DNA of 64,000 nucleotides from Escherichia phage 24-32N. The position numbers and the translations under genes were made by a program. Of the stretch, positions 27,825-28,313 are shown one piece after another. A model generated the notes under the pieces. That model ran no database searches, was not told the origin of the DNA, and saw only the letters and a program-made list of their open reading frames with translations. How positions within the stretch are numbered: position 1 is the stretch's first letter; each line of letters opens with the position of its first letter. The stretch lies in the sequence record PV933157.1; one strand, written 5' to 3'.

Positions 27825-28313
27825 ATGTCAGAAGAAATTAAAGTCCATTTCACCAATTATATCGGAACCAAGTGTGTATATGGTTTTCCGATGAGTAAAG
27901 AAACATACTGCAAACTTCGTGGTTGGGATGTACCAGCAGATGAAGATACGCTAGAAGAGGGTTACTTAGTAGAGTACCCAGACTCTAAGTCCAACCATCC
28001 TCAGTTCCGTGGCTATATTAGCTGGTCACCAAAATCTGCGTTTGAAGAAGCATACCGTGATACGAAAAAAGGTTGTACCTTTGGTCATGCAGTAGAACTT
28101 ATGAAAACAGGCTTCAGAATGACCCGTAAAGGTTGGAACGGAAAAGGAATGTATATCACCTTAGTATCCGGTGAAAATTGGGCCATGGATAAACATGAAA
28201 ATACCGTTTATGAGAAACGGGATTGGCTAGGCATTAAAACCATTGATAACCAGTTTATGCCATGGATTCCATCCCAATCAGATGTATTAGCAGAAGACTG
28301 GGTAATTCTATAA
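27825..28313 (+). CDS. Protein with C-terminal DUF2829 (Tad2-like) domain; candidate anti-Thoeris signal sponge
   Basis: Start at the ATG at 27825 with GAGG 6 nt upstream; C-terminal RKGWNGKG...PWIPSQSDVLAEDWVIL matches the remembered DUF2829 pattern. Confidence 0.45.
   Translation: MSEEIKVHFTNYIGTKCVYGFPMSKETYCKLRGWDVPADEDTLEEGYLVEYPDSKSNHPQFRGYISWSPKSAFEEAYRDTKKGCTFGHAVELMKTGFRMTRKGWNGKGMYITLVSGENWAMDKHENTVYEKRDWLGIKTIDNQFMPWIPSQSDVLAEDWVIL

What the first reader, a model, noticed from the sequence alone, without database searches (positions are those of the whole stretch)
27825..28313. Candidate anti-Thoeris (Tad2-like, DUF2829) domain fused to an unknown N-terminal domain
The C-terminal ~75 aa (GHAVELMKTGFRMTRKGWNGKGMYITL...MPWIPSQSDVLAEDWVIL) matches my recollection of the DUF2829 fold, which in Tad2 sequesters the Thoeris signalling nucleotide. 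The N-terminal ~90 aa (GYLVEYPDSKSNHPQFRGYISWSPKSAFEEAYR) is unassigned. The gene sits with other small genes just upstream of the virion RNAP gene, a plausible accessory/anti-defence locus.
Basis: partly seen in the sequence, partly recalled or inferred. Interest (0 to 1): 0.6.

Follow-up and report, generated by a model that had tools for sequence, protein, structure and literature searches.

The report
Tad2 sponge fused to partner domain
This phage gene is the counterpart of coliphage N4 gp49: its second half is a clear member of the Tad2 family, which soaks up bacterial alarm molecules, and its first half is an uncharacterised, highly conserved small domain found fused to six unrelated families of such "sponge" proteins.

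Summary
Window 27825..28313 (+) encodes a 162-aa protein. Residues 85-161 match Pfam PF11195 (Tad2-like) at E=5e-23, solved Tad2 structures by sequence (E~1e-16) and by fold (TM 0.75-0.81). All four SPO1 Tad2 ligand-contact residues are kept. The gene is the ortholog of N4 gp49 (87% identity). It lies in the published "anti-signalling hotspot" of N4-like phages between primase and virion RNA polymerase, next to an Acb4 homolog (N4 gp48-like), a Sequestin homolog and a Bes1 homolog. So the Tad2 reading is right, but it is ordinary: orthologs are already annotated this way.

The more interesting part is the N-terminal domain ("X", aa ~8-80). It has no Pfam, NCBIfam or PDB match. It forms a large family of at least 1,270 representative clusters. 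It evolves more slowly than its partner domains. It occurs alone or fused to Tad2, Sequestin, Acb4, Acb2, Lockin and RyR-Tad. It is homologous to the N-domain of Pectobacterium phage CB1 gp68, a domain-swapped dimer with no anti-type-I-Thoeris activity. Its function is unknown. It may be a further ligand-binding module or a dimerising accessory domain.

The parts
27825..28313 (+). ORF of 162 aa: X-Tad2 two-domain protein, ortholog of N4 gp49
   Evidence: tblastn identity: 92.5% to ECBP1, 91% to Bp4, 86.7% to N4 gp49. PHROG 872 matches the full length at E 1e-64.
27846..28064 (+). Domain X (aa ~8-80): uncharacterised, acidic, highly conserved module that partners with sponge domains
28077..28307 (+). 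Tad2-like domain (aa 85-161), PF11195
28134..28139 (+). Codons W104-N105, equivalent to SPO1 Tad2 W25-N26 (ligand contacts)
   Evidence: Alignment. Residues named in 10.1101/2023.05.01.538930. Invariant in 53 homologs.
28263..28283 (+). Codons W147 to D153, equivalent to SPO1 Tad2 W73 to D79 (ligand contacts)
27816..27819 (+). GAGG ribosome-binding site, 5 nt before the ATG
   Evidence: read from the sequence
27787..27807 (+). 8-bp G+C-rich hairpin just upstream of the gene. It lies inside the alternative GTG-extended ORF, which argues for the ATG at 27825 as the true start.
27040..27432 (+). Acb4-family sponge gene (N4 gp48-like). The probable start is the ATG at 27052.
   Evidence: PF13876 at E 2e-25. 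53% identical to N4 gp48. N4 gp48 is a validated Acb4 (PMC12657230).
27432..27680 (+). 82-aa ORF of unknown function inside the cassette (phrog_29724)
28324..28557 (+). 77-aa ORF of unknown function (phrog_9565; only weak HTH-like hits)
28517..28753 (+). Sequestin-family (PF21825) sponge gene. The likely start is the ATG at 28550.
   Evidence: PF21825 at E 3e-17. Family function from 10.1101/2025.07.12.664507.
28757..28780 (+). Intrinsic-terminator-like hairpin plus T run that ends the cassette
26845..26876 (+). Terminator-like hairpin before the cassette, after the tRNA genes
23648..24202 (+). Bes1 (RuvC-like, N4 gp46-like) homolog in the same hotspot
   Evidence: 41% identity, E 4.6e-46 to Ab09 gp60. 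Function.
28786..39156 (-). Virion RNA polymerase gene, the right-hand boundary of the hotspot
   Evidence: annotations of orthologous loci
19792..22002 (+). Primase (PriCT_1), the left-hand boundary of the hotspot

Best explanation
The gene encodes a two-module anti-signalling protein of an N4-like coliphage; it is the ortholog of N4 gp49. The C-terminal module is a genuine Tad2-family sponge. By homology it should form a homotetramer with two pockets at protomer interfaces, lined by W104/N105 and W147/D153. These pockets would sequester a TIR-made ADP-ribose-derived alarm molecule, most probably 3'cADPR (1''-3' gcADPR) of type I Thoeris. The Thoeris effector would then never be activated and infection would proceed. 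The N-terminal module X is an autonomous, dimerising domain that recurs as a partner of many unrelated sponge domains. Here it most likely adds a second, still unidentified binding activity or stabilises the assembly. The gene is part of a cassette of signal sponges (Acb4, X-Tad2, Sequestin, with Bes1 nearby) in the variable hotspot between primase and virion RNAP. Shown here: family membership, fold, conserved contact residues, genomic context, the fusion pattern of X and purifying selection. Inferred: oligomeric state, ligand identity, Thoeris inhibition and the role of X.
For: Tad2 membership:
- Pfam E 5.4e-23, PDB sequence matches and Foldseek matches to 8smf/8wje/9eib/8kbj.
- The ligand residues named for SPO1 Tad2 are conserved and invariant in 53 homologs.

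Context:
- Acb4 (PF13876) and Sequestin (PF21825) genes lie in the same terminator-bounded cassette.
- A Bes1 homolog is nearby.
- Gene order matches N4 gp48-gp49-vRNAP.
- The published hotspot in N4-like phages holds Tad2, Acb4 and Sequestin.
- N4 gp48 is a validated Acb4.

Domain X:
- 1,270 representative clusters.
- Partners among 149 representatives: Tad2 49, Sequestin 46, Acb4 20, Acb2/Tad1 hairpin 3.
- Acb4-X-Sequestin triple fusions exist, as do an X-Lockin fusion and the X-RyR-Tad fusion.
- Stand-alone X genes exist, for example the 78-aa gene before the vRNAP of phiEaP8.
- X is more conserved than its partners.
Against: - Nothing here was tested biochemically.
- Tad2 homologs differ in ligand (3'cADPR, His-ADPR, N7-cADPR, cUMP/cCMP, cyclic dinucleotides), and 19 of 84 tested sponge homologs inhibited none of seven systems. 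Family membership therefore does not fix the target.
- The phage also carries a Sequestin homolog, whose family sequesters 3'cADPR. The Tad2 module may be redundant or may have a different ligand.
- X is attached directly to helix alpha1, which forms the tetramer core in Tad2. Its effect on assembly was not modelled.
- For X, the only experiment known to me found no anti-type-I-Thoeris activity for the divergent CB1 gp68 N-domain.
- X is acidic (median pI 4.9), unlike the positively charged pockets typical of nucleotide sponges.
Confidence: 0.75

Rival explanations
1. Domain X is itself a new signal sponge or ligand-binding module. It would bind an immune signal different from its partner's, so each fusion broadens the range of signals neutralised, as shown for Acb4-Tad2 and Acb4-Sequestin fusions.
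For: - The same 'fused to known sponges' logic uncovered Sequestin.
- X is fused to six unrelated sponge families and sits as the middle module in Acb4-X-Sequestin proteins.
- It exists as a stand-alone 65-110 aa protein like other sponges.
- It is a dimer in the CB1 structure, so inter-protomer pockets are possible.
- Invariant or near-invariant aromatic and charged residues: K16, Y28, R32, W34, E40, E50, Y51, N57, Y64, W67.
- It is more conserved than its sponge partners across very different phages, which fits an invariant small-molecule target.
- Nearest-neighbour X domains often have different partners (concordance 0.42 against 0.25 shuffled), so X behaves as an independent module.
Against: - CB1 gp68_N (1-86) had no apparent activity against type I Thoeris. 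That member is divergent and lacks the RGW/DEN/NHP motifs, and only that system is reported for the fragment.
- X is acidic overall.
- It was not among the candidates of the positive-pocket screen: no X motif in Table S2.
- N4, which carries X-Tad2, shows no known phenotype attributable to X.
Confidence: 0.3
2. Domain X has no target of its own. It would be a structural module (a domain-swapped dimeriser) that stabilises sponge oligomers, raises their avidity or links them together.
For: - In the CB1 RyR-Tad crystal the N-domain dimerises by swapping strand beta1, and the fragment alone was inactive while the C-domain alone sufficed.
- All partner families form even-numbered oligomers (dimer, tetramer, hexamer), which is compatible with a two-fold module.
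- In the X-only AF2 model the first strand is not formed, as expected if it pairs with another chain.
Against: - Stand-alone X genes exist in the same hotspot with no fused sponge.
- Conservation is higher than in the ligand-binding partners and includes many polar residues, which is unusual for a mere connector.
- The sponges oligomerise on their own.
Confidence: 0.3
3. Domain X is a protein-binding inhibitor that blocks a defence protein (for example a TIR enzyme or an effector, like Tad3-Tad8) or a guard system that senses sponges (Panoptes-like).
For: - Direct-binding Thoeris inhibitors exist and use loops that enter the TIR active site.
- X has two long, conserved acidic loops (aa 33-44 and 52-63).
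- An association with any kind of sponge would make sense for a counter to sponge-sensing guards.
Against: - Very high conservation across phages of distant hosts argues against a fast-evolving protein target.
- N4 carries X-Tad2 yet is restricted by Panoptes through its Acb4.
- I could not compare X with Tad3-Tad8 because that paper is not held.
- The authors who annotate Tad3 in these hotspots still call the CB1 N-domain a fold of unknown function.
Confidence: 0.12
4. The Tad2 module targets a signal other than 3'cADPR: His-ADPR (type II Thoeris), N7-cADPR (type IV), Pycsar cUMP/cCMP or CBASS dinucleotides.
For: - Documented functional diversity within the Tad2 family.
- The best PDB sequence match is the His-ADPR-binding Myroides Tad2, by a small margin.
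- The Sequestin homolog in the same cassette belongs to a family that sequesters 3'cADPR.
Against: - All four SPO1 gcADPR contacts are conserved.
- The insertion between strands beta2 and beta3 is short, like that of SPO1 Tad2 and unlike the long HgmTad2 insertion that builds the dinucleotide pocket.
Confidence: 0.25
5. The protein is an anti-CRISPR of the AcrIIA7 type.
For: AcrIIA7 carries DUF2829, and some orthologs are annotated 'anti-CRISPR protein'.
Against: - The Acr activity of AcrIIA7/HgmTad2 could not be reproduced, and the family is regarded as sponges.
- The match to AcrIIA7 is partial.
- From general knowledge, E. coli has no type II CRISPR-Cas.
Confidence: 0.02

Closest known systems
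Escherichia phage N4 gp49 (and orthologs in ECBP1, Bp4, IME11 and other Gamaleyavirus/Enquatrovirus phages)
   Same: Same two-domain architecture, 87-92% identity, and the same position after the Acb4 gene and before the virion RNAP.
   Different: This phage has extra small genes in the cassette: an 82-aa ORF, a 77-aa ORF and a Sequestin homolog. Its Acb4 is only 53% identical to N4 gp48. I found no functional study of gp49.
SPO1 Tad2 (gp34.65; PDB 8SME/8SMF/8SMG, 8WJE)
   Same: Same Pfam family and fold, 44% identity over the domain. The ligand contacts W25/N26/W73/D79 are conserved and the beta2-beta3 insertion is similarly short.
   Different: SPO1 Tad2 is a stand-alone 89-aa protein. Here the domain carries an 82-aa N-terminal module attached to helix alpha1.
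Myroides odoratus prophage Tad2 (MoTad2, PDB 9EIB/8V3E) and HgmTad2/AcrIIA7 (8KBI-8KBM)
   Same: Same family. MoTad2 is the best PDB sequence hit (E 3e-16).
   Different: MoTad2 binds His-ADPR and cUMP/cCMP. HgmTad2 has a long insertion that forms a cyclic-dinucleotide pocket, which is absent here.
Pectobacterium phage CB1 gp68 'RyR Tad' (10.64898/2026.06.04.730250)
   Same: Same design: X-type N-domain plus a C-terminal 3'cADPR sponge, in the same N4-like hotspot. The N-domains are homologous (hmmsearch 1.2e-9; hhalign 97%).
   Different: The C-domain is RyR-repeat-like, not Tad2. The CB1 N-domain is a divergent X lacking the RGW, DEN and NHP motifs. It is a dimer rather than the expected tetramer.
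Sponge-sponge fusions: Pm86 Acb4-Tad2, Ab09 gp59 Acb4-Sequestin, Tad2-PF21825
   Same: A single polypeptide combining small oligomeric anti-signalling modules, encoded in phage anti-defence islands.
   Different: In those cases both modules are known sponges. Here one module (X) has no known ligand or activity.

Membership tests
Tad2 / DUF2829 (PF11195) | Sequence profile match above the curated threshold over the whole domain | tested here: met
   81.7 bits against a cut-off of 25, E 5.4e-23, profile positions 2-72 of 73
Tad2 / DUF2829 (PF11195) | [quoted passage not shown] | tested here: met
   AF2 model at pLDDT 86.8. Foldseek against 8smf/8wje/8smg gives E ~1e-6 and target-normalised TM 0.75-0.81.
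Tad2 / DUF2829 (PF11195) | Ligand-contact residues (SPO1 W25, N26, W73, D79) | tested here: met
   W104, N105, W147 and D153 align and are invariant in 53 homologs
Tad2 / DUF2829 (PF11195) | Homotetramer with inter-protomer pockets | not testable with these tools
   Only monomer prediction is available. X is attached to helix alpha1, which forms the tetramer core.
Tad2 / DUF2829 (PF11195) | Binds and sequesters a TIR-derived signal; inhibits Thoeris | not testable with these tools
   Needs binding assays and plaque assays
Anti-signalling hotspot of N4-like phages (Fedorova et al. 2026) | Located between primase and virion RNAP, together with other signalling inhibitors | tested here: met
   Primase 19792-22002, vRNAP 28786-39156, Bes1 homolog 23648-24202, Acb4 27040-27432, Sequestin 28517-28753 (paper)
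Domain X = N-terminal domain of CB1 gp68 (RyR Tad) | Sequence homology of the N-domains | tested here: met
   hmmsearch E 1.2e-9 and hhalign probability 97%. The Yersinia phage TG1 RyR protein also matches by Foldseek.
Domain X = N-terminal domain of CB1 gp68 (RyR Tad) | Domain-swapped dimer through strand beta1 | not testable with these tools
   Only indirect: strand 10-13 appears in the full-length model but not in the X-only model
Known sponge or inhibitor families as an identity for X (Tad1, Acb2, Acb4, Sequestin, Lockin, RyR-Tad, Bes1, Bes2) | Sequence or structure similarity of X to the family | tested here: not met
Tad3-Tad8 and TadIV-1 as an identity for X | Sequence similarity | not tested
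   The Tad3-8 paper (PMID 39855193) is not held. TadIV-1 is described as a two-helix dimer, unlike the beta-rich X, but no sequence comparison was made.
AcrIIA7-type anti-CRISPR | Inhibition of Cas9 | not testable with these tools
   Only a partial sequence match (aa 84-114, E 4e-10). The published activity was not reproducible.

The most novel reading that the evidence does not exclude
Domain X (aa ~8-80) is the founding module of a seventh or eighth family of phage anti-signalling binders. It would be a small, acidic, domain-swapped dimer that sequesters an immune signal or metabolite not covered by the known sponges. Its ligand could point to a signalling molecule or defence pathway not yet recognised. 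Its fusion to six unrelated sponge families and its stand-alone forms would then mark 'sponge cassettes' in more than a thousand phage lineages.
Probability: 0.3. Interest if true: 0.75.

Novelty: new member of a known kind. Interest (0 to 1): 0.5.

Why it matters
The Tad2 half adds nothing conceptually new. It documents that this N4-like coliphage carries a compact cassette of at least three signal-sponge modules (Acb4, Tad2, Sequestin) in the known hotspot.

The value lies in the N-terminal domain. It is a very widespread, strongly constrained module with no database annotation, and it is fused to Tad2, Sequestin, Acb4, Acb2, Lockin and RyR-Tad. In the papers I could read it is mentioned only in passing, as "a fold with unknown function".

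The same guilt-by-fusion logic has already yielded a validated sponge family (Sequestin). X is therefore a concrete, cheap-to-test candidate for a new anti-defence activity. If it turns out to be only a dimeriser, it would still be a general design principle of sponge proteins. Sponges have also been used to discover new immune signals, so a new binder could be a discovery tool.

Tried and rejected
- **PDB 6E3C.** This code is used as an exclusion filter in the sponge-diversity paper. It is the phage L Dec OB-fold, not X.
- **Bes1/Bes2.** The X HMM does not hit Ab09 Bes1 or Bes2.
- **Anti-CRISPR reading.** Rejected.
- **Alternative start.** The 208-aa GTG-extended ORF (27687) is rejected because orthologs start at the ATG, a GAGG precedes it, and a hairpin lies inside the extension.
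- **Prior testing of X-containing proteins.** No X motif occurs in the supplements held for the Tad1/Tad2/Acb2 diversity study or in the candidate table of Tal et al.. X-Sequestin and X-Lockin fusions are present, undiscussed, in their homolog tables.
- **Unavailable resources.** The Tad3-Tad8 paper is not held. No publication on N4 gp49 was found.
- **Solved homologs of the neighbours.** PDB sequence searches with the Acb4 and Sequestin neighbours found no solved homolog by phmmer.

Full report
**1. The observation**

Window 27825..28313 (+) is an intact ORF of 162 codons plus a stop. A GAGG lies 5 nt upstream of the ATG, and an 8-bp G+C hairpin sits at 27787-27807. A longer GTG-initiated reading (27687, 208 aa) exists mechanically. 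Orthologs begin at the ATG, and the hairpin lies inside the extension, so 27825 is the start.

The window is from an N4-like coliphage (Schitoviridae, Enquatrovirinae; Gamaleyavirus-like). The protein is 92.5% identical to ECBP1_0057, 91% to the Bp4 homolog and 86.7% to N4 gp49.

**2. The C-terminal half is a Tad2 domain**

- Pfam PF11195 (Tad2-like, formerly DUF2829) matches residues 85-161 with 81.7 bits (threshold 25) and E 5.4e-23, over essentially the whole profile.
- phmmer against all PDB chains finds Myroides Tad2 (9eib, 8v3e) and SPO1 Tad2 (8sme, 8wje) at E 3e-16 to 1e-14. AcrIIA7/HgmTad2 and SptTad2 match more weakly.
- An AlphaFold2 model built on 53 homologs (pLDDT 86.8) matches the SPO1, Myroides and Hgm Tad2 crystal structures by Foldseek (E 8e-7 to 2e-4; target-normalised TM 0.75-0.81 for SPO1 Tad2). 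Nothing else matches significantly.
- The residues that Yirmiya et al. name as holding 1''-3' gcADPR in SPO1 Tad2 are W25, N26, W73 and D79. They align with W104, N105, W147 and D153, and all four are invariant in the 53-sequence alignment.
- The segment between strands beta2 and beta3 is short, as in SPO1 Tad2. It is unlike the long insertion that builds the cyclic-dinucleotide pocket of HgmTad2.

**3. The surroundings are a sponge cassette in a known hotspot**

The gene lies in a plus-strand block of small genes (26883-28753). The block is bounded by terminator-like hairpins at 26845-26876 and 28757-28780, and it converges on the 3' end of the virion RNAP gene (28786..39156, minus strand).

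| Coordinates | Feature | Evidence |
|---|---|---|
| 27040-27432 | Acb4 homolog: PF13876, E 2e-25; 53% identical to N4 gp48 | |
| 28517-28753 | Sequestin homolog: PF21825, E 3e-17 | |
| 27432-27680 | 82-aa ORF, no assignment | |
| 28324-28557 | 77-aa ORF, no assignment | |
| 23648-24202 | Homolog of Ab09 gp60 'Bes1' | |
| 22851-23648 | ORF at the position of N4 SSB (no Pfam hit; assigned by gene order only) | |
| 22059-22811 | AAA_24 protein | |
| 19792-22002 | Primase | |

What is published about these families:

- PF13876 is the Acb4 cGAMP-sponge family (10.1101/2024.12.30.630793). N4 gp48 has been shown to act as an Acb4 that triggers Panoptes (PMC12657230).
- PF21825 is the Sequestin family of 3'cADPR sponges. 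It was discovered because it is fused to Tad2 and Acb4 (10.1101/2025.07.12.664507).
- Fedorova et al. (10.64898/2026.06.04.730250) describe exactly this interval of N4-like phages, between primase and virion RNAP, as a hotspot of anti-signalling genes that includes Tad2, Tad3, Acb4, Sequestin, Bes1 and Bes2.

Orthologs of the gene are already annotated 'DUF2829 domain-containing protein', 'Thoeris anti-defense 2-like protein' or 'anti-CRISPR protein' in public records.

**4. The N-terminal domain (X)**

*Size and architectures of the family*

- X is a large family. phmmer of residues 1-82 against 1.84 billion cluster representatives gives 1,270 hits at E<=1e-3 and 567 at E<=1e-10. IMG/VR holds at least 590 coding stretches.
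- Pfam scanning of the best 149 representatives shows co-resident domains: Tad2 in 49, Sequestin in 46, Acb4 in 20 and Acb2/Tad1 hairpin in 3.
- My own HMM-based architecture count among those 149 representatives is: X-Tad2 43, X-Sequestin 33, Acb4-X-Sequestin 12, X-Acb4 5, Acb4-X 4, Tad2-X 3, and 45 with X alone or with unassigned partners.
- One unassigned partner is a Lockin domain: 53% identity, E 4e-31, to a Lockin homolog from Table S4 of Tal et al.. That table also contains fusions of a divergent X to Lockin, and their Sequestin table holds about 85 X-Sequestin entries. X is not discussed in that paper.
- The best 80 IMG/VR loci give X-Tad2 59, X-Sequestin 11, X alone 4, Acb4-X-Sequestin 2, X-Acb2 2, X-Acb4-Tad2 1 and X-Acb4 1. 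In 24 of the 80 loci another sponge gene, usually Acb4, lies within 4 kb.
- Stand-alone X genes exist. One is a 78-aa gene directly before the virion RNAP of the N4-like Erwinia phage phiEaP8. Others are 65-92 aa BFVD entries.

*The link to RyR Tad*

The N-domain of Pectobacterium phage CB1 gp68 ('RyR Tad') is homologous to X: hmmsearch E 1.2e-9 and hhalign probability 97%. [quoted passage not shown] They report that residues 1-86 alone had no apparent activity against type I Thoeris. They also report that in the crystal it forms a domain-swapped dimer through strand beta1.

X is thus found fused to six unrelated sponge families: Tad2, Sequestin, Acb4, Acb2, Lockin and RyR-Tad.

*Constraint on X*

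- X is more conserved than its partners. Mean pairwise identity is 57% against 35% for Tad2, and 53% against 30% for Sequestin, in a set selected on X, which biases the comparison in favour of X.
- In the set selected on full length the figures are 62% against 54%.
- Against close orthologs, dN/dS is 0.07-0.16 for X and 0.08-0.41 for Tad2.
- Invariant or near-invariant residues include K16, Y28, R32, W34, E40, Y47, E50, Y51, N57, Y64, S66, W67 and P69.
- The domain is acidic, with a median pI of 4.9.
- The nearest X relatives often have a different partner (concordance 0.42 against 0.25 when shuffled). X therefore moves as an independent module.

**5. How it most likely works**

*Shown here:* the protein is a Tad2-family member with intact contact residues. 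It is encoded in a cassette with two other sponge families in the N4-type hotspot.

*Inferred by homology:*

- The Tad2 module tetramerises and sequesters a TIR-derived ADP-ribose signal, most probably 3'cADPR. That would prevent activation of the Thoeris effector. Because Tad2 homologs vary in ligand and a Sequestin homolog is present, His-ADPR or another signal remains possible.
- X forms two-fold dimers, as in CB1 gp68. This would be compatible with the even-numbered oligomers of all its partners.

*Role of X.* My estimates are:

| Reading | Estimate |
|---|---|
| A further ligand-binding module | about 0.3 |
| A purely structural dimeriser | about 0.3 |
| A protein-binding inhibitor | about 0.1 |
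| Unassigned | the rest |

- The fusion pattern, the stand-alone genes and the strong conservation of polar and aromatic residues favour an activity of its own.
- The inactivity of the divergent CB1 fragment, the acidic charge and its absence from the positive-pocket screen argue against a classical nucleotide sponge.

**6. Comparison and novelty**

The gene is a new member of a known kind: a Tad2 fusion protein in a described hotspot, orthologous to N4 gp49. I found no functional study of gp49.

What I did not find in the literature available to me is recognition that its N-terminal domain is a promiscuous partner of six sponge families. That is the lead worth following, and it is directly testable. 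I could not compare X with Tad3-Tad8 because the paper is not held.

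Noticed in passing
window 23648-24202 (+): Ortholog of Pseudomonas phage Ab09 gp60 'Bes1' (RuvC-like, N4 gp46-like): 41% identity, E 4.6e-46. Bes1 was recently reported to give broad evasion of Thoeris and CBASS by an unknown mechanism.
   Followed up: partly
window 27432-27680 (+) and 28324-28557 (+): Two small ORFs (82 and 77 aa) of unknown function sit inside the sponge cassette. They match phrog_29724 and phrog_9565. The second has only weak HTH/sigma-70 region 4 hits (E ~0.1). By position they are candidate anti-defence genes. Both are absent from the gp48-gp49-vRNAP annotation of N4.
   Followed up: partly
window 24800-26600: About 1.6 kb has no ORF longer than 77 aa. 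It is followed by two tRNA genes: 26442-26517 (anticodon undetermined by ARAGORN) and 26524-26599 (tRNA-Ile). The related phage ECBP1 annotates a pseudo-tRNA in this stretch.
   Followed up: no
window 18378-18875 (+): HNH_3 plus AP2 homing-endonuclease-like gene among the replication genes.
   Followed up: no
protein P0262 (354 aa, metagenomic): Its architecture is X - HNH_3 - AP2 - Tad2. A homing-endonuclease module appears to sit between X and the Tad2 domain in one reading frame. This is either a mobile insertion or a merged gene call.
   Followed up: no
window 27040-27432 compared with 27825-28313: Adjacent genes diverge very unevenly from N4. The Acb4 homolog is 53% identical to N4 gp48, while X-Tad2 is 87% identical to gp49. 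This suggests cassette exchange or much faster evolution of Acb4.
   Followed up: partly
proteins P0121-P0269 (X-containing representatives): About 30% of X-containing proteins carry C-terminal regions of 47-147 aa with no Pfam match and little similarity to each other. By the same fusion logic these are candidate unknown sponge or anti-defence domains.
   Followed up: partly
L004 (Clostridium phage vB_CpeS-CP51) 2995-3459: An X-containing 154-aa protein is encoded between the minor capsid protein gene and downstream hypothetical genes of a Clostridium siphovirus. This shows that X reaches Firmicute phages and lies outside N4-type hotspots.
   Followed up: no
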